Assembly: GCA_964035575.1 (NCBI GenBank) | Contig: OZ037844.1 | Span: forward strand, 434,001 to 498,000 | Origin: Rhynchopus sp. YZ270_cl-10 | Lineage: Eukaryota | Reading direction: 5' to 3' | DNA: 64,000 bases | Shown here: positions 1,578-63,783 of the stretch, in pieces | Position numbering within the stretch: position 1 is the stretch's first letter | How the letters are laid out: every line of letters begins with the position of its first letter | Position numbers and translations under genes: made by a program | Notes under the pieces: model-generated | Databases searched by the model: none | Told to the model about the DNA's origin: nothing | What the model saw: the letters and a program-made list of their open reading frames with translations, nothing else

Positions 1578-2341
1578 GGATGCGTCCAATGAAAATCACG
1601 TCGTGTAGAAGAGTTCAAGAATGTAGGTTTTATTATTTTTGTATACAACAGACGAAGCGGTACGCGTACGGTTGTAAAGAAATAATACAGACCGAAATGT
1701 TTGGGCGTCTTCGGTTCGAATGATTGGAATTGTGTGTGTAGTTCAGACATAAATACTGGCTCTTCTATCTTGTTCTTTTATTCATTGTTTTCCTTTCATT
1801 GCCCTTTGCTTGTGCTCCCCGACTCCAATTCAACCAACACTTACAGAGGGGGGTCAAAAAGTTATTAGCGTTTTTCATTTAAAAAAAAAAAAAAAAAGAA
1901 GGAAAAGAGATAATTGGCGTTATTGTTGTTATTGGGATTTACAGTCTCACATTGTCTTTTTCGTTCGTTGTTCTATTTAGACACGTTGGGCCTAATGCGC
2001 CTGCACTGTTCGATGCTAGTATGTAAGCACAGAGCACCTAGGGTCTGACTATTACGCGCAGTACCGTCGAGGGACGTACTGTTGCAACGAACTTCACACC
2101 ATTTCTCCGACTGTTTAGGTAGCCGCTTACATACAGCTCACAGGCGTCGCATCTGGGCAGTTTTTCACGTGGCGTTCGCCCTCACTCTTTGTCTTCCGAC
2201 TCAGCAGCCATGGCGCGGGTCGTTTTACGAATTTTGAGGGAATAAGCTACAGTTTTGTTGAATTGAATTGGAGAAGGGGATGCGTCCAATGAAAATCACA
2301 TCGTGTAGAAGAGTTCAAGAATGTAGGTTTTATTATTTTTG
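1578..2341 (+). repeat. Split direct repeats at the retroelement 3' end: ~64-bp copies at 1578-1641 and 2278-2341
   Basis: GGATGCGTCCAATGAAAATCAC(G/A)TCGTGTAGAAGAGTTCAAGAATGTAGGTTTTATTATTTTTG occurs twice with one mismatch. An imperfect inverted pair (1816-1839 / 2256-2280) lies between them. Confidence 0.85.
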
Positions 2342-3055
2342 AAATCCGAAGGTCACTTCGAAGTGACCTTCGAAAAGTGCCCTAAAAAGTGACCTTCCCC
2401 TTTTTATTTTTGAAATCCGGTGTCACGAAGTGACCTCGGATGCTTAACATGCACCGGGAACACGTTGGAGGGTCCGGATTTTTTTTTCTTTTTTGCCAAG
2501 ATCAGTGGTCTGCAGGGCTGCAGGTTGCCACAATGTACATTTTAAGCGCAATTTTTTGAAATGTTGCGTACCGTGGCTTCGCCAGAAACTTTCGTTTTAG
2601 CAAAATACGTAAGTAATTTACGGAAACTGACGATAATTACCAACGACAGTGCCATTTCATGGCAACATTTTTTAGAAATGTTGGTATCGTGGCTTCGCCA
2701 GGAACCTTTGGGTGACATGACCACCGTATCTTTCGTAAATGTACTGGGATTACTGATAAGAAGGTCCCCCACTAAACATCTGCCTCTGCTGTGTTGTGTT
2801 GTTCGTGGTAAGAAGCAAAACGGTGGTACCAGACTGCGAGAACGCAAAATTGCCTTACAAAAAAAATCGTATCTAGTACTCTGTCCCTATGATACGGCGA
2901 TAACCAGCGTCCAGTGTATGTCCGAGGAATTTGCACCTTTTCAACTTTGCTGTTCCTCTGAGGGGGGAAAGTTTTTTTTTTCCCTCCCCAAAAAACGAGA
3001 AGTGACCTTGAAGTTACCATTTTAAATTTTTTTGAGAACAGCGTTAGGACCCCTG
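2332..3055 (-). mobile_element. hAT-type MITE, same family as 26855-27531, with one end displaced by the retroelement
   Basis: Reverse-complement match to 26855-27480. Intact TIR TTAGGACCCCTG at 3044-3055. About 50 bp including the other TIR is missing at the retroelement junction. Confidence 0.85.
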
Positions 3056-5947: not shown

Positions 5948-7306
5948 TCATTCTTCTGCACCGTGCTTGAGGAGAACCTGCTCCACATCTGCATGTTGTT
6001 TCTGCCTCGCATGGCACAACGCAGTGTAGCCGAACAAATTTCTGTGGTTCACATCCACCTTGTTCAAGCCCACAAGATAGCGCACAGTCTCGACGTCACT
6101 ATAAAGAGCTGCATGCAGGAGACACGTGTTACTAAAGTCGTCCACAACACGCACGTCCGCACCTGCTTCCACTAAAATCTTCACAATGTCGAGTCCCCGA
6201 CCCTCACAAGCAAAGCAAAGAGGTGTGCTTCCATTATAGTGTGCAGTCCTTGCATCGACGTCTGCCCCTGCATCAATCAGAACCTGCATCACGTCTGGGT
6301 ACTTCTGTAACACTGCGTGGTGCAGTGAATCAAGTCTCGAAAAGTTTGTGCGAGTCACGTCCACCTCAGGCATGCACAGAAGAGTACGCACAGTCTCGGT
6401 ACGTCTATTGACAGCCGCAAGGGAAAGACATGTCTCCCCAAGTTCATCTGTGACACACACGTCCGCACCTGCCTTGAGCAGCACCTCCACAACACGGAGA
6501 TGCCCATGCTTGCTTGCCACGAGGAGTGGCGAACGTCCTTGAAAATCCTTCACCTCGATGTCAGCTCCTGCATCAATGAGCACCTCCACCACATCTGCAT
6601 ATTTTTCATCAGCTGCATAGAGCACCGCAGTGCGGCCGAACCTGTCCTTGTGATTCACGTCCACTTCCGGCAAGCCCACAAGATAGTGCATAGTCTCGAT
6701 GTGCCCACATCGCGCAGCCATCATAGCATATGTTAATCCACCGTTGCCACTGGCTCGTACTTCCGCACCTGATTCAACCAACATCTTCACAACTTCGAGG
6801 GCTCCAGAATCACAAGCCCAGTGCAGAGGCGAACGTCCCATGTCGTCCCTTGCCTCGATGTCTGCCCCTGCATCAATGAGCACCTGACACACTGCAGGGT
6901 CCTCCCACATGGCTGGACAGGGTCGGTCATCTTCTTCCTCCTGCCCGTGTGGGACAAACGCAACGTTGCTGCAGACTGACTTCCAATGCTGCAAGAGGAC
7001 CTCCGTGCACGCAGTGTGGTCTGCGTGGACGCACTCACTCAGCAGCATCCCGAAGCCCATCTGCGTTGTCTCAACATACGGAAGAAGCAGTGCGAGGCAT
7101 TCATCGTGGTTCCCTCTGCATGCCTCGTGCACAGCATCGAAGGCAACCTTTTTGTTATTTGTGTCTGGGCTGAGCTTCTCAAGTCCCACCCGCACGGCAG
7201 TCGTGTCGCCGTTCCTGGCAGCCTCCACCAAGACCGAGTCTGCAGAAAGCTTTCTTCTCTTTGGTGCCTTCTCGTCAGGTGTGCTGTCTGCGTGTCGCTT
7301 CGACAT
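5948..7306 (-). CDS. Ankyrin-repeat protein copy 2 (452 aa, 3 triplet modules, N-terminal NLS-like motif)
   Basis: Repeated GxSPL/GxTCL...AGADIE ankyrin consensus; PKRRKL motif; intact ORF. Confidence 0.92.
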   Translation of the reverse strand: MSKRHADSTPDEKAPKRRKLSADSVLVEAARNGDTTAVRVGLEKLSPDTNNKKVAFDAVHEACRGNHDECLALLLPYVETTQMGFGMLLSECVHADHTACTEVLLQHWKSVCSNVAFVPHGQEEEDDRPCPAMWEDPAVCQVLIDAGADIEARDDMGRSPLHWACDSGALEVVKMLVESGAEVRASGNGGLTYAMMAARCGHIETMHYLVGLPEVDVNHKDRFGRTAVLYAADEKYADVVEVLIDAGADIEVKDFQGRSPLLVASKHGHLRVVEVLLKAGADVCVTDELGETCLSLAAVNRRTETVRTLLCMPEVDVTRTNFSRLDSLHHAVLQKYPDVMQVLIDAGADVDARTAHYNGSTPLCFACEGRGLDIVKILVEAGADVRVVDDFSNTCLLHAALYSDVETVRYLVGLNKVDVNHRNLFGYTALCHARQKQHADVEQVLLKHGAEE

Positions 7307-10162: not shown

Positions 10163-10882
10163 TCACTTTGCGTCCTTCCCACTCCACCGCACAACGAGCA
10201 GCGCTGCCGCCGCACCAAGGAGAACTCCCTGGTAGTTCTGAGCGACCCAACCGGAGAGGAAGGTGGTGGGGCGGGTCCAACGCCAGTGTGCGGAGTGCGG
10301 TGCCCCATCCATGCACATGCCCGCCCCAGGCAGACCGTCCAGAGAGTAGCCGTAGGCACTGAACTTCTTGAGCAGATCTGGGTCCATGTCTTCACCCATT
10401 TTGTCTGTGACTATTTTAGTCAGAGTTTCTCTGTCCTTTTCATAAGTCATCAACGGAACAGCATAACCACATGAGCTCGTGATGGTGAAGCTCTTGATCG
10501 TGATGACAGACCGACAGTGTGCAGGGTTAAGCACCGTCCAGTCAGAGAAGTTGGCCGCCACCTTCTCATCAAACTCTGCAGTGCCGTTCAAAGCTGCGCT
10601 GCCGGTCCCAAAGATGCGGACAATAAGCGGATCGCCCTGGAAGGTGCAGAACATCAGCACCACCCGTCCGTTCTCGCGGATGTGCGCTAGCGTCTCACAC
10701 CCACTCCCAAAAGATTCCAGATACTGCACCTCATTCGGGCCTGTGATCTTGAAAGTGCCGTTCAACCCCTTTGGGCTGAGGTTGACGTGCTTCCCATTGA
10801 CAGGCGCAGAGGCGGTGAACATGATGTGGCTGTTGGTGATCACCCTCTGCACGGGCTTGTCGATTGTGTCGTGGAACTTCAT
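10163..10882 (-). CDS. Pyridoxamine 5'-phosphate oxidase-like FMN-binding protein with C-terminal TM helix, copy 1
   Basis: MFTASAP..GKHVNLSPKG, GSGCETLAHIRENGR..MFC.F.G.P.I.R, SCGYAVP; hydrophobic tail. Start set at MKFHDT, which all three copies share. Confidence 0.88.
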   Translation of the reverse strand: MKFHDTIDKPVQRVITNSHIMFTASAPVNGKHVNLSPKGLNGTFKITGPNEVQYLESFGSGCETLAHIRENGRVVLMFCTFQGDPLIVRIFGTGSAALNGTAEFDEKVAANFSDWTVLNPAHCRSVITIKSFTITSSCGYAVPLMTYEKDRETLTKIVTDKMGEDMDPDLLKKFSAYGYSLDGLPGAGMCMDGAPHSAHWRWTRPTTFLSGWVAQNYQGVLLGAAAALLVVRWSGKDAK

Positions 10883-11029
10883 TGTTTGTTGTGTGTTTTT
10901 CTTGTGTAAGAACGGCGTCCTTTTTTGCAGTAATGGGGATTGAGACGAGGGAGGGGGGTGAGATGAGGACGTGGGGGAGTGTTTCTTATTTTTGAAGGAT
11001 TTTATTGTCCCTTTGACAAAATGTCTTTG

Positions 11030-11385
11030 TTTTTCTCTTTGTCTATTTTTCCTGCATTTTTTATTCTCTTCTTTGTACTTTCTTTTGTTTTGGTTGTTGT
11101 TAGATACGCTCAATCCCCTATCGAGTTCTGTGAATAGCACGGAACTCCTTTCCAGGTGTATCCATGGAAAGACAGTATCATATGTGATACCGAAATTTTT
11201 TTTGAAAGAAGGCGTCGTTAAGAAAAAAAACAAACAACGGACGCACTGTGTGAAAAAACGAGTGTTTCTCTGCGCGCGTGATATTTTGTGGGGAAGAATA
11301 AAACATTATGAACAAAGTTCGTTGCGTTCCCACTATCGTTTTCTTCATAAGTACGCAGTAAGTAGTGAGCGTAGCGAGCTACGTC
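11030..11385. repeat. Dispersed ~330-bp repeat, second copy at ~42990-43320
   Basis: Shared GTCTATTTTTCCTGCATTTTT...GTGAATAGCACGGAAC...CCATGGAAAGACAGTATCATATGTG...CCCACTATCGTTT. Confidence 0.75.
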
Positions 11386-11923: not shown

Positions 11924-12643
11924 TCACTTTGCGTCCTTCCCACTCCACCGCACAACGAGCAGCGCTGTCGCCGCACCAAGGAGAAACGCCTGGTAGTTCT
12001 GAGCGACCCAACCGGAGAGGAAGGTGGTGGGGCGGGTCCAACGCCAGTGTGCGGTGTGCGGTGACCCATCCATGCACATGCCCGCCCCAGGCAGACCGTC
12101 CAGAGAGTAGCCGTAGGCACACAGCTTTTTGCGGAAGTCTGGGTCCATGTCTTCACCCATTTTGTCTGTGACCACTTTTGACAAAGTTTCTCTGTCCGTA
12201 TCGTATGTCATCAAAGGCACGGCCCAGCCGCAGGAGCTAGTGATGGTGAAGCTCTTGATCGTGATGACAGCCCGACAGCGTGCAGGGTTAAGCTTCGTCC
12301 AGTCAGAGAAGTTGGCTGCCACCTTCTGGTCATACTCCGCAGTGCCGTTCAAAGCTGCACTGCCGTAGCCGTAGAGACGGACAATAAGCGGATCGCCCTG
12401 GAAGGTGCAGAACATCAGCACCACCCGTCCGTTCTCGCGGATGTGCGCCAGCGTCTCACACCCACTCCCAAAAGAGTCCAAATACTGTACCTCATTTGGG
12501 CCTGTGATCTTGAAAGTGCCGTTCAATCCCTTTGGGCTGAGGTTGACGTGCTTCCCATTGACAGGCGCAGAGGCGGTGAACATGATGTGGCTGTTGGTGA
12601 TCACCCTCTGCACGGGCTTGTCGATTGTGTCGTGGAACTTCAT
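11924..12643 (-). CDS. Pyridoxamine 5'-phosphate oxidase-like protein, copy 2
   Basis: Close tandem paralogue of 10163-10882. Confidence 0.88.
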   Translation of the reverse strand: MKFHDTIDKPVQRVITNSHIMFTASAPVNGKHVNLSPKGLNGTFKITGPNEVQYLDSFGSGCETLAHIRENGRVVLMFCTFQGDPLIVRLYGYGSAALNGTAEYDQKVAANFSDWTKLNPARCRAVITIKSFTITSSCGWAVPLMTYDTDRETLSKVVTDKMGEDMDPDFRKKLCAYGYSLDGLPGAGMCMDGSPHTAHWRWTRPTTFLSGWVAQNYQAFLLGAATALLVVRWSGKDAK

Positions 12644-12749
12644 TGTTTGTTGTGTGTTTTTCTTGTGTAAGAACGGCGTCCTTTTTTGCAGTAATGGGGA
12701 TTGGGACGAGGGATCTTGAATCTGCAAGAAACGTAAAAATTATTCGCAA

Positions 12750-14663
12750 ACAAATATTTCCCCGCACCGTGCTCGAGGAGAACCTGCACCGCACCTGCGT
12801 GTTGTTCCTGCCTCGCATAGTACAACGCAGTCAGACGCAAATAAATTCTGTCATTCACGTCTACCTTGTTCAAGTCCACACGATAGCGCACAGTCTCGGT
12901 GTGCCGCAACAATAAGATGAGTTCTGATATTGTTGTTGTCCACCACACACACGTACGCACCTGCTTTGACCTTGGGTATGATTTCATCGATATCCGGTAC
13001 CTCAACCAACTGCCCCTGCATCAATGAGCACCTCCACCACATCTGCGTGCTTCTGTGCTACTGCGTGGTGTAGTGAAGTGGAGCCGCTATTATTTGACTG
13101 ATTCACGTCCACCTCAGGCATGCACAGAAGAGTACGCACAGTCTCGGTCTGTCCATTGGCAGCCGCAAGGCTGAGACATGTCTCCCCAAAGTTGTCTGTG
13201 ACACACACTCCCGCACCTGCTTTGAGCAGCGCCTCGACATCACGGAGCTTCCCACACTGGCTAGCCACGTGGAGTGGCGAACATCCGCGACCTTCATTGT
13301 ACTTAACCTCAATGTCTGCCCCTGCATCAATGAGCAGCTCCACCACATCTGAGTGCTTCTGTGCTACTGCGTGGTGCAGTGAAGTGGAGCCGCTATTATT
13401 TGATTGATTCACATCCACCTCAGGCATGCACAGAAGACTACGCACAGTCTCGGTGTGTCCATAGGCAACCGCAAGGCTGAGACATGTGAGTCCTTTGTCG
13501 TCTGTGACACACACTCCTGCGCCTGCTTTGACCAACATCTTCACAACCTGGAGATTCCCACACTCGCTCGCCTTGAGGAGTGGCGAACGTCCGTCGTTGC
13601 ATTTTGCCTCGATGTCTGCCCCTGCATCAATGAGCACCTCCATCACATCTGCACTTGCGTTCTCAACTGCTGCGAGCAACGCGGTGTAGCCATCCTCAGC
13701 CTTGTGACTCAGGTCGACCTGCGGCAAACCAACAAGATAGCGCACAGTCTCGGTGTGTCCAAATGCTGCAGCAATCATAAGACTTGTCGATCCTATATTA
13801 TGTGTGGCACGCACTTCCGCACCTGCTTCCACCAACATCTTCACAATTGGCTGACTCCCATTCTTGCAAGCATACAGCAGAGGTGTATAAGAGTCCTCAT
13901 CCCTTGTCTCGATGTCTGCACCTGCATCAATCAGGACGTTCACCACATCTGCGTGGTTTTGACCTACTGCACAGAACAACGCAGACCAGTCGTCAACACC
14001 TTTGTGATTCACATCCACATCCTTCAAACCCACAAGATAACGCACAGTCTCGGTGTGTCCATGATATGCTGCAAAGATAAGACATGTGTTTCCGAAGTTG
14101 CACGTACCACACACTCCCGCACCAGCTGCCACCAAATTTTTCATAACTGCGAGTGCTCCTGAACGACAAGCCAAGTGCAGAGGCGAACGTCCCATGTCGT
14201 CCCTTGCCTCGATGTCTGCCCCTGCATCAATGAGCACCTGACACACTGCAGAGTCCGCCCACATGGCTGGACAGTCACGGTTTTTGATGTCCTCCTGCCC
14301 GTGTGGGACACACGCAACGTTGCTGCAGACTGACTTCCAATGCTGCAAGAGGACCTCCGTGCACGCAGTGTGGTCTGCGTGGACGCACTCATTCAGCAGC
14401 ATCCCGAAGCCCATCTGCGTTGTCTCAACATACGGAAGAAGCAGTGCGAGGCATTCATCGTGGTTCCCTCTGCATGCCTCGTGCACAGCATCGAAGGCAA
14501 CCGTTTTGCTGTCTGTGTCTGGGCTGAGCTTCTCAAGTCCCACCCGCACGGCAGTCGTGTCGCCGTTCCTGGCAGCCTCCACCAAGACCTCGTCTGCAGA
14601 AAGCTTTCTTCTCTTTGGTGCCTTCTCGTCAGGTGTGCTGTCTGCGTGTTGCTCCTTCGACAT
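12750..14663 (-). CDS. Ankyrin-repeat protein copy 3 (553-aa ORF 13002-14663; fifth module degenerate at ~12750-13010)
   Basis: Four intact triplet modules, then an out-of-frame remnant HTETVRY..LNKVDVN..TALYYARQEQH..LLEHGA. Confidence 0.85.
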
Positions 14664-14781: not shown

Positions 14782-15917
14782 ATGTTGTGTCTTTTATGCT
14801 GTTTCTTTTTGTGGAGGTTGTGAGGTGAGTGGTGTCCCTGAACTGCCACATTCTTCTTCCCTTGCACTGTCGTAAAGTGACTTTACGTCACGGCGTGAAA
14901 TCAAGAGTCGCTACAATTTTTCCGCCCCACTCTCAATTGTCTGGCTACCTTAATGCACTCCAATAAAAACAAAGAAAAGTTTGTAAGATCCTGAGCCTCA
15001 TCTCTCTGTTGTGTCACCCAAACAAAAATACGACATTCAACAAGCTAGTACTAGTATATGGCGAATGTGGAGGGACAAGAAAGGAATAGCTAGGAAGATG
15101 AACCGCAGCCTCTCGGGCGTGACTCAGCAACGCAAGCGTCAGCCAGAAAGAGAATCCCTTATTGCCAACGGTGCGTCTGGCCTCACAGTACTTTATCCAC
15201 CTAAAGTGTCGGTCGGGCAGATAAACAGTAAGAGGGCTTATTTGAAAAATAAAGTAGAAATTTAAATCTGTTATCAACAGTGAGGGGGTGAAAGCGCTGT
15301 TTCCCGCAGAACAACTCCAAACACCCCACCTCGTCCAGCATGCAGGGGAAAGATGAGGGTTAGAAACACCCGGCATGCTAAAGCCCTGAGTAATAACACA
15401 AACCCAGGGGGATGTTCTGTGTGGGGTTATTGTGAGTTTCTGACAAAGTATTTTATCATAATATTATATTATGCATTCAATATTGAGAGCGGAGGAGGGA
15501 TCAAACAAAAATGTTCCCATCCCTTCCTGACCAAAAAAAACACACATTTTAATTCTGTTTCACCCCCCCCAACCTACACTACTCTAAACAGTACTGTTGC
15601 AAGCATACAATGTGGCCACGTTGCACTGCGCATAATCAAAAAAAGCACGAAATACACCCTCCACAGTGTACCTTTGGTACAATGACGGGGTGGACCCCCA
15701 ATCATGTAGTCCTACCCCCATTTCAAACAACATGCAGTACGTATTGTTATGATGTGCATAGCATCAAAACTTCTCCGCTTATTGGGGCGGACCCGCAAAA
15801 TTAAGAAAAGTTTATAAGATGACCCTAAGCCTCTCATGCCTTAGCCACCTCATGAATACATGGAGAGAGTGCGCAAAACGAGACACTGTTTTCTGTACCA
15901 TTTACTACCTTGAAAGC

Positions 15918-17315
15918 TTACCTCCCGACAAGCCTCCCCTCCCTCTCGGTCAAGACGTACTCCGTTACGCGGTGCGTCGCTGCTGTGTCGGCATCGGTCT
16001 TTGTGATCTCCGCTTCACCCATCGGGTCGTCCACCACCAACCTCCACGGCTCCTTCACCAGCAGCAACGCCCCGAGGTCTCTTACTAGCTCTGCCACTGC
16101 TGCGGCAGCGTTTCCTTGCCACATCACCATTTGCATATTTTTGCGAACCTCCTCCGCATGGCACGCAATAAAGTCCTTCAACGTCCACCGCTGTCCGGAC
16201 GTCACATAGGAGCTCAACTCCAAACCCACCTTAGGCACCATGATTGCCGCCTCACGAGAGTGTGTTACACAACGCATCAGATCGGCTTCGTTTTGGACAA
16301 TCACCTCTACCCGACGTCCCTGCTTTGCCACACCAAAATCAGGTTCAGCCATTGTACCTTCATAACGTTCAAGACATGCCAAAGAGCCCTCAGGAAGGCT
16401 TTCCCGCATTTCCTTCAATTCATTGAGGTACCCCAGCTTGTCAAGAAGGTAGATAAAAGCGGTGTCAATGTCGTTCACCAAAACGTCACGTCCCCTGCCG
16501 TATCGGAGACCTACCGATTCTCCGACCGGGCGGGTGTCGAATACGACACGTGGTGCGTCGTCTGGGACTTCTTGTGGGAGAAGTGCTAATGGTGTGACGG
16601 TAAGGCTGGTTCCCACGACGAAGAGTGTGTCAACTTGGCGCATGTTGTGTTGTACTGTGGACAGTGCTTCTGGAGAGAGTTCTTCGCCATAGAGAATTAC
16701 GTTGGGGCGTACACCAGGTTTGTTGCAGGATTTGCACAGGATTTCGGTAGATTTTTGTGGCGCAGAAGCATCGGTGTTGGTGATGTCTTTGATGTTGGTT
16801 AGAATGGATGCGGCAAAGTTTTGTAATGTTTCCTCTTTCTTACAATAGTGGCAAACTGCAGAGGATAAGCTTCCATGCGCAGAGGTGACAACAGACTCTG
16901 GAAGGCCTGCAGAGATTTCCAACCCATCGATGTTCTGTGTAACGACATTGTGGATGAGATTGTGTCGATGGAGAATAGAGAGTGCACGGTGAGCAGCGCT
17001 TGGCTTCTGAAGCTTTGAAGCACAGTGTAGAATCATCCGCCTCTTGACCTCAAGAAAGCCAAGCTGTGACGCCTCGAAGCACTCCTTGCTTGCAACGATG
17101 CTAGGCTCTTCGGAAATGGAGGCCCGCATGTCTTCGGGAATGGTAAGCTTCGTCGCATCCAGCACGTCGTACAGACCTCCCTTCGAACGGTAGTCACCAA
17201 TCCCACTGTTGCGGCTGATCCCTGCACCGATGGTGACACCAATGTTCTTCACCTCACCAGAACGGATCTGATTGATAACATCATCGAAAGAGGCGATGAA
17301 GTTGGGAAGGGACAT
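15918..17315 (-). CDS. Class I-like sirtuin (NAD+-dependent deacylase) fused to a C-terminal ZPR1-like A/B domain
   Basis: Sirtuin: GAGISRNSGIGDYRS, TQNIDGLE, HG, CxxC..CxxC, RPNVILYGE, VGTSL.V.P. C-terminal: G.RVEV.V....DL.R.V..S..A.I.VP..GLE...PWRLVVDDPMG...I, which fits the ZPR1 A/B domain pattern. Confidence 0.88.
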   Translation of the reverse strand: MSLPNFIASFDDVINQIRSGEVKNIGVTIGAGISRNSGIGDYRSKGGLYDVLDATKLTIPEDMRASISEEPSIVASKECFEASQLGFLEVKRRMILHCASKLQKPSAAHRALSILHRHNLIHNVVTQNIDGLEISAGLPESVVTSAHGSLSSAVCHYCKKEETLQNFAASILTNIKDITNTDASAPQKSTEILCKSCNKPGVRPNVILYGEELSPEALSTVQHNMRQVDTLFVVGTSLTVTPLALLPQEVPDDAPRVVFDTRPVGESVGLRYGRGRDVLVNDIDTAFIYLLDKLGYLNELKEMRESLPEGSLACLERYEGTMAEPDFGVAKQGRRVEVIVQNEADLMRCVTHSREAAIMVPKVGLELSSYVTSGQRWTLKDFIACHAEEVRKNMQMVMWQGNAAAAVAELVRDLGALLLVKEPWRLVVDDPMGEAEITKTDADTAATHRVTEYVLTEREGRLVGR

Positions 17316-18035
17316 ACAGTTAGGAAAAAATGGTGTAAAAAAAATATGTAAAATCCTGGTAATTAAGTGATGTGGGTTGGAATAAATACAAAAACCGAGG
17401 GGGGGGTGAGTGCGTCTTTTTTTTGAGTTTAAATTGTTGACAACGCTTCAAACCAGATCCATCTTCTAAAAGGAAAAAAAAAAACAGGTTTTATCAGATC
17501 ACCCTAATCCGCTCTGTGCTTGGGTACCTAAAGAACCAATGACCTTTAGCTTTTGCCAGCCATCCGGATGAAAGCACAACAACTGCGGGCAACAACAAAG
17601 TGAAGTTGATAGTGCAAACGCCTCTGGGACGCAGGCACTGACACTCCAACAAAAGCAGGGTATTAGGGTGGTTAAAAAAACTGGTTTTGAAAACCAGTTT
17701 TTCCAAAAACTGGTTTTCAAAAAAAAAAAAAAAAAAAACAGAGAAATCTGGAGGGGGAAAAAAAACCGACACTTTTCACCAGGCCTTTCTGTAAATGTCG
17801 TCCCCAGATTAGGGCGGACTCGATTTTTTTCCCCGCATTTTTTCCCCGCCTGGTAGAACCGTGGTTGAACCAGGGGAGTGCCTTTGGGAAATGGCTGTTC
17901 CTTGATTTTTTTTTGCCTGCGGCGCCATTTTTCACTTTTTGCTCCGCAAAAAAGGGTTCGTTTGAGTGGCTCTGTGGTGTAAAAAGCTAGATTTTTACAC
18001 CGTACCCTCAAATTTTTTCGCCTGCGGCGCCATTT

Positions 18036-18396
18036 TATATTATTTTTCTCATATGAAAAAAAGTACTCTGAGAGATTCGTTAAGGATTCGTATGACATAA
18101 TATTAACTTTTTGTCAGCGGTGTGGCAAAAAGTGAAATTGTGTTTTTAGCCTAAAAATGGGTGGGGGAGATGTAAAAAGTACTTTTTTTTTTACTTTTTG
18201 TCACACTTGATCTGCCTTTGTTTTTGGTGGGATTTTGGCTTGGTGTGGCAAAATGTTGTGGTCTTCATGCCCAGGTCATATCCTGCTACATATTTCTCGG
18301 CATTGTGTTGGGAGTTGTGTTCAATATAATTTATGCCTTACGAATACTTATCGATCTCTCAGAGTACTTTTTTTTATATAGAGAAAAAATTATATA
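18036..18396. mobile_element. Nested element with ~65-bp imperfect TIRs and TA-rich ends
   Basis: TATATTATTTTTCTCATATGAAAAAAAGTACTCTGAGAGATTCGTTAAGGATTCGTATGACATAA versus the reverse complement of 18331-18396. Absent from the related copy at 3263-3310. Confidence 0.75.
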
Positions 18397-20399: not shown

Positions 20400-21107
20400 C
20401 TATTGGGATCTCATCTGCCGGGAGACGAGCGTAGCAAGGAGGGACCCTACGAGAATGCCTTGGTAGTTCTGCGTGAACCATCCGGTGATGGTGGAGAGGG
20501 GACGGGCAGGACGCCAGTAGGCACCTTCCTTGCCCATTTCAACCCCAGCACCGGGGAGCCCGTCGAGAGAGTAGCCACGGATCGCGTACTTCTCGTTGTA
20601 GTCTGGCGCGTTTGTGAGCTTGCCAGGTGGTCTGGCAGTGTGGTTGTCGGAAAGCACGCGACGGTCCTGCTCAAATGTCATCAACGGAACAGCATAACCA
20701 CATGAGCTCGTGATGGTGAAGCTTTTGATCGTGATGACAGACCGGAACGCAGATTTGTCCAAAGCCGTGTCCCCAAAGTTTGCCACCTTCTCATCAAACT
20801 CTGCAGTGCCGTTTAAAGCTGCGCTGCCGGTCCCAAAGATGCGGACAATAAGCGGATCGCCCTGGAAGGTGCAGAACATCAGCGTCACCCGTCCGTTCTC
20901 GCGGATGTGCGCCAGCGTCTCACACCCACTCCCAAAGGTGTCCAAATACTGCACCTCGTTTGGCCCTGTTACCTTGAAGGTGCCGTTCATTCCCTTTGGG
21001 CTGAGATTGACGTGCTTCCCATTGACAGGCGCAGAGGCGATGAACATGATATGGCTGTTGGTGATCACCCTCTGCACGGGCTTGTCGATTGTGTCGTGGA
21101 ACTTCAT
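20400..21107 (-). CDS. Pyridoxamine 5'-phosphate oxidase-like protein, copy 3 (divergent C-terminal third)
   Basis: Same core motifs as copies 1 and 2; diverges after VPLMT; TM tail retained. Confidence 0.88.
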   Translation of the reverse strand: MKFHDTIDKPVQRVITNSHIMFIASAPVNGKHVNLSPKGMNGTFKVTGPNEVQYLDTFGSGCETLAHIRENGRVTLMFCTFQGDPLIVRIFGTGSAALNGTAEFDEKVANFGDTALDKSAFRSVITIKSFTITSSCGYAVPLMTFEQDRRVLSDNHTARPPGKLTNAPDYNEKYAIRGYSLDGLPGAGVEMGKEGAYWRPARPLSTITGWFTQNYQGILVGSLLATLVSRQMRSQ

Positions 21108-24100
21108 TGTTTGTTGTGTTGTGGGTTGTTGCACGTCCTGTATTGTGGTGTGTGTTGTGTTGGGGGGGGGGGGGGGAGGAAATGCGTGGAAGAGCGCAGA
21201 ATCAACCAATCACCTGCTGCGGTGTTATGGGGGGAATGTCTTTACCCTGAAAACCTTTTGATGTTTTGCGGATTTATACGAGGTGATGACAGTCCAGGAC
21301 AGCAACAAAAGTGACACTATCTTTTTTGGTATTTTTTTGTTATCCTGACAAATCACACTAGGCGTACTCTCACTTGCCACCTGATTAGGGCCTGAGGCAA
21401 AGTACATATCGACAGCACAACCCCAACCCCCCTCTCGAGTGCGGCAGAGATGAGACGAATGCAGCAAACTCAGTTCTGACTTTATTCTTTTTCATTTTTC
21501 TATTTTTTTTGAAAACAAAAAATGTCCATAGCAATAGAAGCACCGTCGAAGGAGTGCGTTTTTTTTTTTTCTTCTTCTTCATCTCTTTCGTCTCTGTTCC
21601 GAAGGGGTTTGACAGTTACTGAGTATAGATTTATTTCCCCCCAAAAAACCCGGTTTGGGGTTTAAAAAAAAATCCGTTTGGGCAACAAAAGCGAATTTCG
21701 AGCTTTCTCTTTTCCCGGTTTTTCACAACCGGCATATACTATTAAACTCTTCTGCTCTGAAGCAGTGTTTCTTACTAATTTTTTTGTTTTGTGAAAACTT
21801 GGTTGTTTTAGTGTAGACACCCCGAAGATGAACTCCACTACACTACACGCTTCTAGGTAATGCCCGAGAATTGCTCCAGTTTTGTTTTCACCTATCGGTA
21901 CACAGTCGACCTACCCACTACCTGCCACACAACAATACGACTAACCAAGTCTTTTTCATTTGTTGGATTAACACGACACACACTCGCACAAAAAAATATG
22001 ACAAAGGTGTTTGCAGCCCCTCTTAAGCTTCAGCTCCTTCAAAACACACATAACAACAAAATAGAGAATATCGGACACAGCGTAGGGGTAGGGGGTGACG
22101 TCAAAAAAAAAAAGTGAAGTTGATAGTGCAAACGCCTCCGGGAAGCAGGCACTGGAAAAAGAAAAAAAAAAAGAAAACAAACAAACAAACAAAAACGCCT
22201 CTCTACAAATACAAATAAACACACGACGAGGCAAAACAACTCTCTTTGCAAGAAACTACACAAAACAAACCAGAAAAAAGAAAATAAAAGAACGGCAGTC
22301 AAATTGATGCACACCCCCCTTAGATGCCAAACAAGATGAAAACCACAAAAACCACAGGACACCCTGAAAAGATGACCACGTTTTCTTTTCTTGCACAAGA
22401 AAAGTTGGTAACATTGCCTGCTGTCCTCCTCTGTGTTGAACTAGAAACACGGCCATGGGTTCACCCTGGGTAACATGAAATGAACTGACATGCGTTGCCA
22501 CGCTACAAACCTATTCCAAACTTTTATGCAAAAAAAAAAGCATTTTTACGTTTGAGGAATATAGCATGAAACCCGGGGTCACATGGTCACCTTACAACCT
22601 ATAAAAAAACACCTCCCCTGGATGTGTGTGTCAGACCACAAAAATACGTGAAAATACCCTTTGGTTGATTACACGATGGTTTGAAGTAAATGAATTGTGG
22701 TTTTCCACGTTGACTTGCAACGGAATCCGCTGAAACTTCAATTCATGCAAGATATTTACTTCACCGTTGTGACACTCGTAAGGCCCTCACCCGCAACATC
22801 AAATACTGGAAACTTTTTTTTTTGAAAGCAAAACACATCATTTGTTGCGTTCTTCTCTTTATAAAAAAAAGACATAATTTCCGAGCGTTTAATTCGCTGT
22901 GAGGGCTGTAAAAAGTTGAGAATGGAGTGGGAGAGCGTTTACGCTAAAAATATTAAACACATAAACAAAAAGAACTATGTCTCCCTCCTCTCCAGTCCCC
23001 CCCTCACCCGGAAGAGTGCGGTCTGTGAATCACTGCACAATCCAAAGAAAACAAAAATACCCCTAAAATCGCAAAATCTCATCTGTTTTCAAGAGTTAGA
23101 TGAGAAATTGGGAAACACTGAAAAAAAAAATCATAAAAGCAAGAGGCAGTACCAGTGGCGCGGCTACCGATAAGTACCGCGTAGTCAGCGTCACGTCTAC
23201 CATGGTAGGTTACAGTGAAAAAAAAAGCTTCGACGCTTCCCACGTCATACGCAAAATAAATAAAACGTTTTGCTGGAAAAAATGGGGAAAAAAACGTGGA
23301 AATGAATGGGTCTCACCGCCACGTAGCTTAAGAATAAAAAGGAAAAAAGAGAAAAATTAAGATGGACACAAGCCCCGGTTTCTTACCCACCCTTTTAAAA
23401 AGGAGGAATCATAGAAACAACGAGGGGTGTGTGTTTGTGTTCGGAATAAGAAGTGGTCATAACACCTCACTGGGGGGAAAAAATGGGAATAAAATAAAAC
23501 TGTAGTTGTTGATGCAGGCACCGACTGACGCTGCCAGCCCCTGAAAGCACAAAGTACCCTGCGGCCAACAACAGAAGATGTAAAAAGGAAACCTAATGAC
23601 TGGCCCGTACCGTAAGAGAACGAGGGCGGTTCACAACCGCTCGACAGCCGGCGGCCCATCTTCCGTTGTAGAGATGTGAGTTTACAGGTACCCAACTCGT
23701 AGTGAACAATAGTAAATAAAATGTTCTTCGTTTCGTTCCTCTCGCCAATACCTTTTTTTCTTTTTGGCATGTTTCTTCCAAAAATATTTTTATTGTAAAA
23801 ATACATGAGACACCATGCGTTTTCCTTTTTAAGACACTCAAAAACCAAAAACAAAAATCTTGATGAAAATGCCTTGCATGCACACATCGTAAAAAAAAAA
23901 AATGTTTATAAGGTGAACCTTAGCATTGCAGATTCACCTTCACATTCGTTGTTGTACAAAAAAAAAATTTAACGTACAAAATAATGCAACAAAACACACT
24001 CAATCCATACATAGTCTGGACTCTGACCAACCAATGTATGTCAATCAAAACGGATATTTTTTCAAAACAAAACAGAATTTTCAAAAAAAAAAAAAAAAAA

Positions 24101-26854: not shown

Positions 26855-27531
26855 CAGGGGTCCTAACGCTGTTCTCAAAAAAATTAAAAATGGTAACTTC
26901 AAGGTCACTTCTCGTTTTTTGGGGAGGGAAAAAAAAAACTTTCCCCCCTCAGAGGAACAACAAAAGTGAGGTCGAAAAGGTGCAAATTCCTCGGACATAC
27001 ACCGGACGTTGGTTATCGCCGTATCATAGGGACAGAGTACTAGATACGATTTTTTTTTTGTGAGGCAATTTCGCGGTGTCGCAGTCTGATGCCACCGTTA
27101 TGCTTTTTACCACGAACAACACAACACAGCCATAGGCAGATGTTTTGGCAGATGTTTAGTGGGTGTCAGCCTTCTTATCAGTAACCTCAGTACATTAATA
27201 AAAGAAACGGCGGTCATGTCACCCAAAGGTTCCTGGCGAAGCCACGGTACGCAACATTTCTAAAAAATGCGCTTAAAATTGTGGCAACCTGCAGCCCTGC
27301 AGACCCCTGATCTTGGCAAAAAAGAAAAAAAATTCCCGGACCCTCCAACGTGTTCCCGGTGTATGTTAAGCATCCGAGGTCACTTCGTGACACCGGATTT
27401 CAAAAAATAAAAATAAAAAGGTCACTTTTTAGGGCACTTTTCGAAGGTCACTTCGAAGTGACCTTCGGATTTCAAAAAAATAAAAAAGGTCACTTCAGAA
27501 GTGGTAAAAGTTACCACTCTTAGGACCCCTG
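26855..27531 (+). mobile_element. Complete 677-bp hAT-type MITE, 12-bp TIR, 8-bp TSD
   Basis: CAGGGGTCCTAA / TTAGGACCCCTG. GTTACACA at 26847-26854 and 27532-27539. Subterminal AGGTCACTT/AAGTGACCT repeats. Confidence 0.93.
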
Positions 27532-34492: not shown

Positions 34493-35273
34493 TTTTCAAA
34501 AAAAAAAAGATCAAAATAAAAAAAAAACTTCAGAAAAAAAGCGAGAAGGAGAAGGAGAGAGAGAGAGGAGAGAAAAAAGGAGTGGAAAGAGGGAAGGGTA
34601 TCCCCTCTTGTGTTATCGCCCCGTTGCAGCAAAGGGGGGGGAGGTGGGGGAAGTGGTTTTTTTTTTGAAGTTTTGAAGAGAAACAAAGAAACACTAAGAA
34701 AAGACGGATGGTTCTGAGGGTGGGAGGAGGTTGGGTGTGAGAAGGGGAAAGAATGGGGGTAATTTTGTAAGTCAATGTGCGAAAGGGTTGAAAAAAAAAA
34801 AGGGGGTGTGAGGATTTACGGAGAATGTCAAAAAATGTTTTGAAAAAAAAAAAAATATGAAAAATGAAAAACAAAAACATAAGAGAGAATATCTTGTTCG
34901 ACCTGATAAAGGAAAACAAGATGCAATAAAGCAAACCCGGCAGTTTCACAACATAGTTGTGCAAACCTTTGTGCTAGAGAGATGTGGTTTTTTTTCTTTC
35001 CGAGTCTCGACAAAATGTGAAATGAAATTTCGATATTTTCAAAATCTATTTCGACATCTCAATATTCCCGCTTGAGAAGAATAATATAGAAACCGACTTC
35101 AGGCACGAGAGAAGTATAAAAAAAAAGACGAGCAAGGAGGGAACTGACTTTTATTGTTCGCCGCTCCGCAATCCGCAACTGTTTGTGTCTTTTATTTCCA
35201 CACTATACGGTGCTGATTATGGCAACAGAATAGTTTATACGAACCCACGCCCTCTGCTTCGTCTTCTTATGCA

Positions 35274-35543
35274 CAGCATCAGCATCAGCATCAGCATCAG
35301 CATCAGCATCAGCATCAGCATCAGCATCAGCATCAGCATCAGCATCAGCATCAGCATCAGCATCAGCATCAGCATCAGCATCAGCATCAGCATCAGCATC
35401 AGCATCAGCATCAGCATCAGCATCAGCATCAGCATCAGCATCAGCATCAGCATCAGCATCAGCATCAGCATCAGCATCAGCATCAGCATCAGCATCAGCA
35501 TCAGCATCAGCATCAGCATCAGCATCAGCATCAGCATCAGCAT
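35274..35543. repeat. Perfect (CAGCAT)45 microsatellite
   Basis: 270 bp of uninterrupted hexamer, ending 65 bp past the stop of the minus-strand gene at 35609. Confidence 0.97.
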
Positions 35544-35608
35544 CAGCAGCACACTCACCACATGCATGAGGCAGCCTGACTCTAGCAATGTCGCCACACA
35601 CCCTGCCT

Positions 35609-36859
35609 TCACGAACACACACACCCACTGCAGCATGACTCCGTTGCCACAACAGTTCGCTTCAAGGGAAGGGGAAGGGGACGAGGGGGCACGACCTCTG
35701 CTGGGGGATCATGCTGCAGGTCCGCCTGCTCTGAATCCGATACCTGCATGTTGATAGCAGCTATGTCGAGCACCGAGGTGACGTTTCCGACAACTAGCAA
35801 CTTACGCCCGTCTGTCGAGGCATGCACAGACCACGCGTGGTCTACGTAGGTGCGTCTCATGGGGGCTCCACTGCGTGCGTCCCACTGCTGCACACTACTG
35901 GTAAAGGCCGTGAAGAGGTACCGCGAGCGGGCACAGAAGCAGGCACCATGTATAGCGTCCCCGCGATCGCGCAGTGTGCAGAGGGCCTGCCCGGAGACGA
36001 TGTCGATGGTGCGGACTGAGGTTGAGCTGCGCTTACCGCGCTTGCTGCCACAGCTCAACACTGCAAGGCTTGCGTCGGGCGAGAACGACGGCCGCAAATA
36101 GAACGACACACCCAGCCCTGTGTCCACACGGTGCACCAGACGCAGCTCAGGGGTGTCCAGACGGTACACCCCAACAGTCGGATATCCATTGCTCAAGAAC
36201 AGCGTCTCGCAGGGTGACACTGCAAAGGAATAACCACACTCATCAATGGTACGCATCTTCACCCCGTCGCAGGAGTACTGTACGATCTGCTTACTGGTCC
36301 CAATCAGCACCGTCTCGGTGACCCGCATGGCCACAAGCCTCTCAACCTCGCGTGCCATAAGGACCACAACCTCTGCACTGTTGTCCCGTGGTCTAAAGTA
36401 CACAGCATTGCTCTGCGCACGACAGCAGACGATGTAGTGTGGCATGAGAACCACCTTGAACCGAGGTCCGCCACTGAACGGGAGAGGTGTGACCTCGGTG
36501 GTGGCGAGGTTGATGGTGACGGCGTGTTTGCCACCCAACACGAGTGTGTCCTCGCATACGTCTCCGACGGAGGCTCTCACAGTATAACGCCTCGGCACCC
36601 ACTCACCACTGTCCTGCTTCCTTCTGCTCACATAGACAGTCCCGCCTGCGCACAGTGCGGTGTGGGCAATCAGAACCTCCGGTGCCAGCACCTCACCATC
36701 AGCATCGTCAACGCACAGCTCCACTGCCTCGGCCGACACCACGCTCTGTGGGTACAACACCGCAACAGCGCGCTCCTGCAGATCTGCAGCACTGCAACCC
36801 TCCCCCACCTCTGCAGCACAGCGTTGTCCAGATGTTGTGCATTCAAACCATATATCCAT
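35609..36859 (-). CDS. Ubiquitin-like N-terminus + WD40/beta-propeller-like domain + Cys-rich C-terminal tail
   Basis: First ATG gives MDIWF with a beta-beta-alpha Ubl-like pattern. Propeller motifs: [28 protein letters not shown]. Ends SCCSGCVCS. Confidence 0.7.
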
Positions 36860-38343
36860 TGTGTGGTCACTGTCTGAGAGAGATCTGGAAGAAGCAGGGT
36901 AGAGCTCTGAGTGCCTGGGGGATGTTTGAGTGAGTGAAACAAAGGTTGCTTTTGTAACATGAATGCTCACCTCCTATCTTTACGACCTGCAGAGTGATAC
37001 AGCATAGAGCTAGGTTGATTGAGGTCGAAATGGGTTAGGGTATTTTTGCTGGTGTTTGTTTTGTATTCTTGTTTCAACAATCTTATTCCCTACCCTATGC
37101 ACCGTGGTGGGTGACTTACTGTGAAAGCTAAATGCGAATGTGTTGTGCATCAGGAAGAAAAGAGACAGAGGGGAAAAAGGAGAATTTTTTTTTTGTAAGA
37201 TAAACCTAAGTAACTTTAAAGTTCTTGCAAAAGTGTTTTGCCTATCAAAGAAAGAGCGCTGCTGGAAAGCAAACGCTTTCTTTTTTTCTTCTTTTATTTT
37301 TTTTGTGGGGGACGACAAAAAAAATTGCATGTTCAAAAAGTTATTGTGGATGATGCATATTAGCAATGCTTTGTACGAAGTCCTATCCACTGTTTATTTA
37401 TTTTCCCCCCAGAAAACTCAGAATCCGTATCTGTATGGACACACAGATTGGGGACGTGGTAATTACCCTTTTCAGCTATTTCTTTAGTTCAAACAAAAAA
37501 CCCCGTCACCTACTGAAGGGTTGGCACACACCAACACCTTTATTTGAAAACATGGTTGTATTAGTGTAGCCACCCTGTGTGTTGTTCCACTATTAATTCA
37601 TTTCCCCACCTCCCCCAAGCAGTGTTGGATTTCGGCTAAAGGGGGGACAGTTACTATTTGCTATTTTTATGAGCGAATGACAACCCGGGATGCAAATAGT
37701 AAAATGAAAATCAAATAATAAATTTAACATCCCTTTCGCCCTGCACCGTGATAACCCAACACCACCCAACATTCTTAAAGGAGCCCCCCATTTTTTAGTA
37801 ATTGTTGCAACCCTCCATTGTTCTTTGTGTAAAACGTCGGAATGCAATAATCACATACAAAGTTTTGTCTTTTCTGCAAAAGCGTGCCCTCCGTTCCGCC
37901 CCCATACCACTAATTTTGTTGGATCGACGATCGGCGAAAAAAATAATCTTAGCAAACGTCTTCCAGGAGACGTTAAAAGGAGGGGGTGGTGTTCTTCCCT
38001 TACCCATTCAGTGTCAGGCTGTAGAATTCCTTCGTAATTGCTGTAAAGGCGTTTATTTTCAGAAGTCTTCAAGATGGCCATTTGAATCGATAAAATTTGT
38101 GTATCACAACACCAAAACTAACACTAAAAAGTTTGACTTTAAAACAACAAACTGAGTTACTCTCTCTTTTTATTCGCAGGGAGGCACCTAAACCATATCA
38201 ATAATTAGCCTCCCCTCAATATGGCGGGTAGAAGTGAGAGGTGGGCTATACTCCGTGCAGGCGTTACCCACTCTAAATATGTTATCAAACACACCACAAG
38301 CCTTTGTACCTTGGTATGGCATCAAAAAAAATATCGCACACAC

Positions 38344-63610: not shown

Positions 63611-63783
63611 CTGTATGTGTTTTTTTTTGTAGTTTTGAAAATCGCAAAATAAGTTATCCGATTGAAGCCAAGAATCCCCCACCTTGACGACTAAAAAACT
63701 GGACATTGAACAATGTGGGCCGAACGGTAATTGACATTAAGGGTCGAAGCCAAATGTGTGAAGCCTCGTAGGATGGAGCATAC

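What the first reader, a model, noticed from the sequence alone, without database searches (positions are those of the whole stretch)
15918..17315. Sirtuin fused to a zinc-finger-less ZPR1 A/B domain
Seen: after a complete sirtuin core, the last ~135 aa read QGRRVEVIVQNEADLMRCVTHSREAAIMVPKVGLEL...SGQRWTLKDFI...KEPWRLVVDDPMGEAEI...EYVLTEREGRLVG. Known: the ZPR1 A/B domain pattern is approximately G.RI.L.V....DLNR.VVKS..A.I.IPEL.LEI...G..TTVEG.L...PFTLILDDP.GNS.I...Y.RT.EQ...LG, and Zpr1 is a dedicated eEF1A chaperone. The C4 finger that normally precedes this domain is missing. Inference: a deacylase targeted to eEF1A or translation. I know of no described sirtuin-ZPR1 fusion.
Basis: partly seen in the sequence, partly recalled or inferred. 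Interest (0 to 1): 0.8.

Follow-up and report, generated by a model that had tools for sequence, protein, structure and literature searches.

The report
Sirtuin fused to finger-less ZPR1 domain
A protist gene encodes an intact sirtuin (an NAD-dependent protein deacylase) joined to one zinc-finger-less copy of the domain that builds ZPR1, the chaperone of translation factor eEF1A; I found no paper describing this combination, and it likely steers the enzyme to that factor or a close relative of it.

Summary
ORF 15918-17315 (minus strand, 465 aa) has a complete class-I sirtuin core (residues 9-304; GAGIS, QNID, H147, two CxxC pairs). An unconserved 25-residue linker follows, then one ZPR1 jelly-roll domain (about 331-465) that keeps its helical hairpin. 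Pfam scores the domain above its curated cut-off. An exhaustive phmmer search of 1.84 billion proteins with the C-terminus alone returned the query, three proteins of the same fusion architecture, and 82 others; the 18 of those 82 scanned with Pfam all carry jr-ZPR1, and the best has E 4e-17. The only significant PDB match, by sequence or fold, is ZPR1 (2qkd; VIA Z 17.9, next 4.0). No ZPR1 zinc ribbon is present. The fusion recurs in four proteins 42-47% identical, one from a single transcript of the diplonemid Sulcionema specki. The added domain is as conserved as the catalytic core. The functional reading, a deacylase aimed at eEF1A, remains an untested inference. By passages read in two papers, yeast Zpr1 uses its zinc finger plus the hairpin for eEF1A. 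The three diplonemids surveyed carry EFL instead of EF-1alpha. The domain cannot be assigned to the A or B type. Verdict: a real, rare, apparently undescribed architecture whose mechanism is plausible but open.

The parts
15918..17315 (-). Whole coding sequence, 465 codons plus stop: sirtuin fused to a jr-ZPR1 domain
   Evidence: The N-termini align from residue 1, starting MSLP / MTLP / MSLP / MPLL in the four family members.
16404..17291 (-). Class-I sirtuin catalytic core, residues 9-304 (Pfam SIR2 covers 30-242)
   Evidence: Pfam E 1.4e-35. phmmer against the PDB: SIRT3 6iso_A E 1.6e-24 over query 9-304, then Hst2 and SIRT2. Foldseek of the full model: SIRT2 6nr0_A E 1.3e-21, SIRT3 4bv3 TMt 0.88, rmsd 2.4.
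17214..17228 (-). GAGIS NAD-binding motif, residues 30-34
   Evidence: aligned to GAGIS of SIRT3; invariant in all four family members.
16875..16877 (-). H147 in the motif AHG, the position of the sirtuin catalytic histidine
   Evidence: Aligned to AHG of SIRT3; H invariant in the family. That this histidine is the catalytic base is recalled knowledge.
16725..16853 (-). Sirtuin zinc module, C155-x2-C158 to C194-x2-C197, with a 15-residue insertion relative to SIRT3
   Evidence: both CxxC pairs are kept in all four members.
16326..16403 (-). Linker, residues 305-330; contains a predicted helix at 309-320
   Evidence: 0 of 25 columns invariant, pairwise identity 0.23. The only cysteine is C314. 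pLDDT is 96-97 for 301-320 and 74 for 321-330.
15921..16325 (-). ZPR1-type jelly-roll (double-stranded beta-helix) domain, residues 331-465, with no zinc ribbon
   Evidence: Pfam PF22794 31.4 bits against 27. phmmer against 1.84e9 proteins. PDB 2qkd_A E 5.7e-10. AF2 pLDDT 87.4. Foldseek 2qkd E 1.8e-11, TMq 0.75. VIA Z 17.9.
16059..16181 (-). Helical hairpin inserted in the jelly-roll, residues 379-419 (helices 379-397 and 401-419)
   Evidence: DSSP on both models. The first helix has 6 of 19 invariant columns, the second 2 of 19.

Best explanation
The gene encodes an intact class-I sirtuin whose C-terminus is a single ZPR1-type jelly-roll domain with its helical hairpin but without the zinc ribbon, and this added domain likely works as a built-in docking module that would bring the deacylase to a translation-elongation GTPase of the eEF1A family (eEF1A, or EFL in this lineage). 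Shown: the two domains lie in one ORF; the catalytic motifs are intact; the C-terminal domain is homologous to ZPR1 in sequence and predicted fold; the zinc ribbon is absent; the architecture is conserved in four proteins; the added domain is as conserved as the catalytic core. Inferred: the enzyme is an active NAD-dependent lysine deacylase; it is cytosolic, because no N-terminal extension precedes the core; the jelly-roll and hairpin bind an elongation factor; and the sirtuin then removes acyl groups from that factor or from proteins bound to it.
For: Architecture. Sirtuin integrity: GAGIS, QNID, H147 and two CxxC pairs align to SIRT3 and are invariant in the family; the fold matches SIRT2/SIRT3 with TMt 0.85-0.88. 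ZPR1 homology: one search gave 86 hits, namely the query, 3 fusion relatives and 82 others (best E 4.3e-17), of which all 18 scanned with Pfam carry jr-ZPR1. One search found 2qkd_A only, E 5.7e-10. One search found 1 match at E<=0.001, 2qkd. One search found 1 of 48,161 chains at Z>=5: 2qkd_A, Z 17.9, chain residues 85-234, which is the A-domain region, with the next best at 4.0. Selection on the added domain: 36 of 135 columns invariant and pairwise identity 0.45, against 75 of 305 and 0.44 for the sirtuin core and 0 of 25 and 0.23 for the linker. [quoted passage not shown] Two secondary sources say the A domain binds eEF1A (PMC13350734; preprint 10.1101/2024.02.27.582196). The hairpin is kept, and its first helix is among the best conserved stretches of the domain.
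Against: The zinc finger, one of the two Zpr1 elements reported to act on eEF1A, is missing. The domain is divergent: 31.4 bits on Pfam, 21-28% identity to canonical ZPR1, and the canonical DDP-x-GNS motif reads DDP-xx-E. It scores the same on A-type and B-type profiles (P0001: 62.7 against 63.5 bits), whereas canonical A and B domains differ by about 60 bits, so the eEF1A-linked A identity is not established. The three diplonemids surveyed by PCR or EST carry EFL, and no EF-1alpha was found in them, so the classical client may be absent. The full-length model has pTM 0.82, which also fits a domain packed on the sirtuin for an internal role. No binding, co-fold or expression data exist for this gene.
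Confidence: 0.35

Rival explanations
1. The jelly-roll domain recruits a different partner. ZPR1 is also reported to bind the SMN complex through its B domain, receptor kinase domains and other proteins. The sirtuin would then act in a pathway unrelated to elongation factors.
For: The domain is equidistant from the A and B types. A review states that the B domain is required for SMN binding. The fusion-specific conserved motifs (HSREA; E/Q-V-x-x-N-M/L-Q-M on hairpin helix 1) differ from canonical ZPR1, as expected after a change of partner. The lineage may lack eEF1A.
Against: No alternative partner is indicated by any result here. The best-documented role of this fold is in eEF1A biogenesis. 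The structural alignment and the pairwise phmmer lean slightly to the A domain (chain 85-234; 24.4 against 16.0 bits).
Confidence: 0.3
2. The jelly-roll is an internal regulatory or structural domain. It would pack on the sirtuin, for example against its zinc module in the way a ZPR1 jelly-roll is paired with its own zinc ribbon, and would tune activity or stability rather than recruit a client.
For: The full-length AF2 model has mean pLDDT 92.0 and pTM 0.82 for a two-domain protein, and a confident linker helix at 309-320. This suggests a fixed relative position.
Against: pTM is indirect, and I could not read the coordinates or the inter-domain error. The linker is not conserved (0 of 25 columns). 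The jelly-roll is conserved across the whole domain, including the hairpin.
Confidence: 0.2
3. The fusion is an artefact: two neighbouring genes joined by an assembly or gene-calling error, or a decaying pseudogene tail.
For: None found. No RNA run was available for this gene.
Against: It is a single uninterrupted 465-codon frame. The same end-to-end architecture occurs in three other proteins 42-47% identical, one from a single transcript. Contigs of four public runs from two studies cover 15812-17583 with no listed differences inside the ORF (tables 3, 4, 8). The domain is as conserved as the catalytic core.
Confidence: 0.02

Closest known systems
Human SIRT2 / SIRT3 and yeast Hst2 (class-I sirtuins)
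   Same: Catalytic core of about 300 residues with GAGIS, QNID, the AHG histidine and a Cys4 zinc module. Best PDB sequence hits: SIRT3 E 1.6e-24, Hst2 5.3e-20, SIRT2 6.8e-20. Best fold hits have TMt 0.85-0.88.
   Different: None of these carries a ZPR1 domain. This protein has a 15-residue insertion in the zinc module relative to SIRT3 and a 135-residue jelly-roll at the C-terminus.
ZPR1 / Zpr1, the eEF1A chaperone (PDB 2qkd, tandem ZPR1 domains)
   Same: Jelly-roll (double-stranded beta-helix) with an inserted helical hairpin. It is the only significant PDB match by sequence (E 5.7e-10), by Foldseek (E 1.8e-11) and by VIA (Z 17.9).
   Different: Canonical ZPR1 is zinc ribbon-A-zinc ribbon-B. 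All 12 proteins of 319 aa or more among the 18 canonical hits scanned had the zinc ribbon. 59 canonical proteins had two complete jelly-rolls by my criteria. Here there is one jelly-roll, no ribbon, 21-28% identity, and it follows an enzyme.
Leishmania infantum SIR2RP1 (PDB 5ol0), a euglenozoan class-I sirtuin
   Same: Same sirtuin class and, by taxonomy of the one named relative, the same phylum. PDB sequence hit E 1.2e-21; Foldseek E 6.8e-21.
   Different: Only the catalytic core of this protein aligns to it (query residues 12-265); nothing matches the jelly-roll.
Protist SIRT2-like sirtuins with other accessory domains (EF-hand, zf-UBP, ZZ)
   Same: These are the closest sirtuin cores outside the family, 33-39% identical over the core, and share the zinc-module insertion IKDI-x-N/G-x-D-x-x-AP. 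Like the fusion, they add a partner-binding module to the core.
   Different: Their extra domains are N-terminal where I read the sequences (P0009, P0011, P0013) and unrelated: PF13405/PF13499, PF02148, PF00569. None has PF22794: 2 of 120 listed and 3 of 92 carry it, and all of those are family members.

Membership tests
Sirtuin (SIR2 family, class I) | Match to the SIR2 profile above the curated cut-off | tested here: met
   PF02146, 123.3 bits against 24, E 1.4e-35, profile 1-180 of 180.
Sirtuin (SIR2 family, class I) | NAD-binding and catalytic motifs: GAGxS, QNxD, catalytic His | tested here: met
   GAGIS 30-34, QNID 127-130 and H147 align to the same motifs of SIRT3; GAGIS, the asparagine and aspartate of QNxD and H147 are invariant in the four family members, while position 127 reads T in P0122.
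Sirtuin (SIR2 family, class I) | Cys4 zinc-binding module | tested here: met
   C155/C158 and C194/C197 align to the CxxC pairs of SIRT3.
Sirtuin (SIR2 family, class I) | Sirtuin fold closest to class-I members | tested here: met
   The model has pLDDT 92. The top Foldseek hits are SIRT2 and SIRT3, E about 1e-21, TMt 0.85-0.88.
Sirtuin (SIR2 family, class I) | NAD-dependent lysine deacylase activity | not testable with these tools
   Needs a recombinant enzyme assay.
ZPR1 family (canonical eEF1A chaperone) | ZPR1 jelly-roll (A/B) domain | tested here: met
   PF22794, 31.4 bits against 27. 2qkd is the only significant PDB match.
ZPR1 family (canonical eEF1A chaperone) | C4 zinc ribbon (PF03367) preceding each jelly-roll | tested here: not met
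   No PF03367 hit at E<=10. No CxxC pair after residue 197. The ribbon is absent in all four family members.
ZPR1 family (canonical eEF1A chaperone) | Tandem duplication (ZnF-A-ZnF-B) | tested here: not met
   One jelly-roll stretch per fusion protein, against two in canonical proteins.
ZPR1 family (canonical eEF1A chaperone) | Helical hairpin inserted in the jelly-roll | tested here: met
   Helices 379-397 and 401-419 in both models.
ZPR1 family (canonical eEF1A chaperone) | Assignable to the A type (eEF1A-linked) or the B type | tested here: inconclusive
   A-HMM against B-HMM scores: 62.7/63.5, 59.5/53.4, 55.6/61.7 and 54.5/49.2 bits for the four members. Canonical domains differ by +59 or -63 bits on average (the canonical domains were scored on profiles that include them). 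VIA and pairwise phmmer lean to A.
ZPR1 family (canonical eEF1A chaperone) | Binds eEF1A | not tested
   No elongation factor of this organism was available, because no genome is held. The one complex job was not folded.

The most novel reading that the evidence does not exclude
This is a Rosetta-stone fusion. A diplonemid-lineage sirtuin has captured the client-binding jelly-roll and hairpin of the eEF1A chaperone ZPR1. The sirtuin's own zinc module stands in for the lost ZPR1 zinc ribbon. The protein docks on the lineage's elongation GTPase (EFL or eEF1A) and erases lysine acylation from it. That would reveal acylation control of elongation-factor folding or activity, and a ZPR1-type recognition of EFL.
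Probability: 0.2. Interest if true: 0.8.

Novelty: new variant of a known kind. Interest (0 to 1): 0.55.

Why it matters
Domain fusions often record a functional link between two pathways. This one would tie NAD-dependent lysine deacylation to the ZPR1 and elongation-factor system, a connection I found in no paper. It also offers a natural test of what a ZPR1 jelly-roll with its hairpin can do without its zinc finger. And it raises the question of whether ZPR1-type recognition extends to EFL, the factor that replaces EF-1alpha in the diplonemids surveyed. The family is very small: 4 clusters among 1.84 billion representatives. The direct impact is therefore on protist biology and on the mechanism of eEF1A-family recognition, not on a widespread system.

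Tried and rejected
- Own genome: none is held. I could not look for eEF1A, EFL, canonical ZPR1 or an Aim29 homologue in this organism.
- Complex prediction of the jelly-roll (alignment A2) with an archaeal EF1A reference as stand-in: not folded, because the tool does not pair a eukaryote chain with a microbial one. It gives no evidence either way, and I did not pursue it further.
- RNA evidence: no RNA holder is listed. The four runs laid behave like DNA, with summed contig depth about 80-420 over both the ORF and the unique intergenic DNA. They say nothing on expression, ends or splicing.
- A 'joint' 15835 to 17597 (table 5) has only 22 letters on its shorter side and lies in high-copy repeats. 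I treat it as repeat cross-talk, not as a deletion form.
- Word-indexed search with residues 320-465 found only the query among 1376 candidates. This was a sensitivity limit that the exhaustive search overcame.
- ESM Atlas with residues 321-465 (one search failed, answered): best score 0.79, below the level of chance hits.
- Weak Pfam Stc1 hit (E 0.011, 16.7 bits against 24.8) over the sirtuin zinc module: rejected as a cysteine-pattern match.
- Papers: the primary Zpr1 papers (PMC10016025, PMC10528422) and the 2qkd structure paper (PMC1955815) are not held. What I say about the zinc finger, hairpin and A domain comes from passages in citing papers.
- Earlier findings of this scan: nothing by place, sequence or words.
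- Two flanking-sequence patterns searched in the window each matched only themselves.

Full report
**What is there.** The minus strand carries one uninterrupted ORF, 15918..17315, with an ATG start and 465 codons. Pfam finds two domains above their curated cut-offs. SIR2 (PF02146) covers residues 30-242 and the full profile, with E 1.4e-35. The ZPR1 jelly-roll domain (PF22794) covers residues 345-457 and profile positions 2-117 of 125, with 31.4 bits against a cut-off of 27 and E 2e-7. No ZPR1 zinc-ribbon profile (PF03367) matched even at E<=10. The protein's nine cysteines are at 79, 98, 155, 158, 194, 197, 314, 349 and 385. The only CxxC pairs are therefore the sirtuin's own.

**The sirtuin half is complete.**
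- phmmer against PDB sequences aligns residues 9-304 to SIRT3 (E 1.6e-24), followed by L. infantum SIR2RP1, Hst2 and SIRT2; 103 distinct sequences matched at E<=0.01.
- In that alignment GAGIS (30-34), QNID (127-130), H147 in AHG, and the cysteine pairs C155/C158 and C194/C197 sit on the matching SIRT3 motifs.
- These motifs are conserved in the four family members: GAGIS, H147 and both CxxC pairs in all four, QNxD with T for Q in P0122.
- The full-length AlphaFold2 model (24-row alignment) has mean pLDDT 92.0 and pTM 0.82.
- Its best Foldseek matches are SIRT2 and SIRT3, with E about 1e-21 and TMt 0.85-0.88.
- Calling this a class-I sirtuin rests on these nearest neighbours. Enzymatic activity is inferred.

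**The C-terminal half is a true ZPR1-type domain.**
- I searched 1.84 billion cluster representatives exhaustively with the last 145 residues alone. There were 86 hits at E<=1e-3.
- Those hits are the query, three proteins of 451-465 aa matched once at their C-termini (P0121 7e-27, P0122 1e-25, P0002 1.4e-24; 45-47% identity), and 82 others. Most of the 82 matched in two stretches; the best is P0123, E 4.3e-17.
- Pfam on 21 of the 86 showed SIR2 plus jr-ZPR1 and no zinc ribbon in the three relatives.
- Of the other 18, 15 had jr-ZPR1 with a Zn_ribbon_ZPR1 match. In two short proteins (170 and 182 aa) that match was a partial one just below the cut-off.
- The remaining three (133, 155 and 252 aa) had jr-ZPR1 only.
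- phmmer of the last 160 residues against the PDB listed two sequences at E<=10. Only 2qkd_A (ZPR1) was significant, at E 5.7e-10. It aligned to both the A domain (24.4 bits) and the B domain (16.0 bits).
- A model of residues 306-465 (17-row alignment, pLDDT 87.4) shows strands interrupted by two long helices, 379-397 and 401-419 in full-length numbering.
- Foldseek found one match at E<=0.001: 2qkd, E 1.8e-11, TMq 0.75, rmsd 2.4 over 136 columns. The next best had E 0.4.
- An independent all-against-representatives search aligned 48,161 chains. One had Z>=5: 2qkd_A, Z 17.9, rmsd 5.7, 146 residues aligned, chain residues 85-234. The next best Z was 4.0.
- The model's alignment contains ZPR1 proteins, so the fold result is not independent of the sequence result. 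The sequence result stands on its own.

**The fusion is conserved and rare.**
- The four proteins align end to end. P0001 against P0002 is 42% identical over 470 columns, E 2e-117. The four-way alignment has 111 invariant columns of 487.
- P0002 is EukProt EP00755, Sulcionema specki, from a single assembled transcript of 1742 nt. S. specki belongs to Euglenozoa, class Diplonemea.
- The other two relatives come from unnamed ENA contigs of 3.3 Mb and 675 kb.
- In the word-indexed collection, PF22794 occurs with SIR2 in 2 of the 120 proteins listed for the single query and in 3 of the 92 found with the family profile. All of these are family members. P0121 was not among the capped candidates.
- A Diplonema papillatum sirtuin in that list (P0240, 589 aa, 31% identity) has no ZPR1 domain.
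- The jelly-roll is as conserved as the catalytic core: 36 of 135 invariant columns and pairwise identity 0.45, against 75 of 305 and 0.44. The linker (305-330) has 0 of 25 invariant columns and identity 0.23.
- Two well-conserved domains joined by a free-drifting linker is the pattern of a functional fusion, not of a decaying tail or a gene-calling error.

**Context.**
- No whole genome is held for the window.
- 18 of the 19 long ORFs I scanned lie on the minus strand. Nine encode ankyrin-repeat proteins and two encode kinases, one of them fused to a PARP catalytic domain.
- Polypyrimidine tracts followed by AG lie upstream of the start codon.
- This same-strand array, together with the diplonemid relative, suggests a euglenozoan-type genome. 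That is an inference, and I did not try to identify the record.
- Contigs of four public runs from two studies cover 15812-17583 with no listed differences inside the ORF. Their depth is the same over the ORF and the unique intergenic DNA, so they look like DNA and say nothing on expression.

**How it most likely works.**
- From passages I read, Zpr1 is a dedicated chaperone of eEF1A. It acts through its zinc finger and its alpha-helical hairpin, and release is driven by the client's GTP hydrolysis and by Aim29 (PMC11790920; PMC10869706).
- A review and a preprint state that the A domain binds eEF1A and that the B domain is needed for SMN binding (eEF1A only). [quoted passage not shown]
- I could not read the primary Zpr1 papers or the structure paper.
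- The fusion keeps the beta-helix and the hairpin. Hairpin helix 1 carries a family-specific conserved motif, with 6 of 19 columns invariant.
- The simplest reading is that the domain is a docking module that would place the deacylase on an eEF1A-family GTPase. I give this 0.35.

**What weakens that reading.**
- The zinc finger is the missing part.
- Profiles built from 59 canonical A domains and 59 canonical B domains score the four fusion domains about equally: 62.7/63.5, 59.5/53.4, 55.6/61.7 and 54.5/49.2 bits. Canonical domains differ by +59 bits (range 32 to 81) or -63 bits (range -83 to -34). The canonical domains were scored on profiles that include them, which inflates that gap.
- In the one survey I read (section 10 of PMC2664479), the three diplonemids examined had EFL, and no EF-1alpha was found in them. 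The target, if it is an elongation factor, may therefore be EFL.
- The pTM of 0.82 for a two-domain protein suggests a fixed arrangement. That also fits an internal regulatory role, or a jelly-roll packed on the sirtuin's own zinc module. I could not inspect the coordinates.

**Rivals.** A different partner (0.3); an internal regulatory or structural domain (0.2); an artefact (0.02). These and the main reading sum to 0.87; the remaining 0.13 is left for readings I have not named. The one complex job, with an archaeal EF1A stand-in, was not folded by the tool and gives no evidence.

**Comparison and novelty.** As a sirtuin, the protein meets every sequence and fold criterion I could test. As a ZPR1-family member it fails two defining features, the zinc ribbon and the tandem duplication. 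It should therefore be described as a sirtuin carrying a ZPR1-homologous domain, not as a ZPR1. Its closest sirtuin cores outside the family, 33-39% identical, are protist enzymes with other add-on modules: EF-hand, zf-UBP and ZZ. Modular targeting thus seems usual in this subfamily, and the ZPR1 module is the new variant. Full-text searches for sirtuin with ZPR1 (13 papers), Diplonema with sirtuin (5 papers), and ZPR1 with domain architecture, fusion or jelly-roll (84 papers at three of four terms, 8 listed) showed nothing on such a fusion in the titles and abstract openings listed. Automatic database annotations could not be checked.

**Verdict.** The finding is a real, conserved and very rare architecture. 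It is a new variant of known kinds. Its mechanism is plausible and testable but unproven. Interest 0.55.

Noticed in passing
window 60981-63647 (-): An 888-aa ORF combines a protein kinase domain (residues 397-625, E 6e-37) with a PARP catalytic domain (680-876, E 1.9e-18). This is another NAD-using enzyme fused to a signalling domain in the same gene array.
   Followed up: no
window 5948-7306, 13002-14663, 41279-42616, 44523-46166, 46511-47887, 48738-50996, 51776-54037, 55228-56277, 56946-58592 (all -): Nine paralogous ankyrin-repeat genes lie on the same strand. A 300-nt block near their 5' ends occurs in 10 copies, each 92-98% identical to the reference copy (family D19). This points to a recently expanded or homogenised gene family.
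   Followed up: partly
window 15656-15839 and 17496-18047: The DNA flanking the sirtuin gene belongs to extremely high-copy repeats. Summed contig depth there is about 1e5 to 1.5e6, against about 80-420 over the ORF, in all four runs laid.
   Followed up: partly
window 10163-11233, 11924-12727, 20400-21209 (all -): Three ORFs have weak pyridoxamine-5'-phosphate-oxidase-like (PNPOx_N) matches at 22.0, 24.4 and 28.2 bits against a cut-off of 28.1. They look like a small paralogous family.
   Followed up: no
window 35202-35645: A tandem array of a 12-nt unit, about 37 copies and largely perfect in its centre, lies just downstream of the ORF at 35609-36970 (-) (family D17).
   Followed up: no
protein P0193 (168 aa, unnamed Logan contigs): This is a stand-alone jelly-roll protein with no aligned zinc-ribbon segment. 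It scores equally on the A and B profiles (34.4 and 33.5 bits) and shares some fusion-like residues. It may be a free-standing relative of the captured domain.
   Followed up: partly
window 2328-3055 and 26855-27486: There are five inverted-repeat pairs of 81-115 nt, 90-97% complementary, with their arms about 24 kb apart (I1, I2, I3, I5, I6). They look like two copies of one element in opposite orientation.
   Followed up: no
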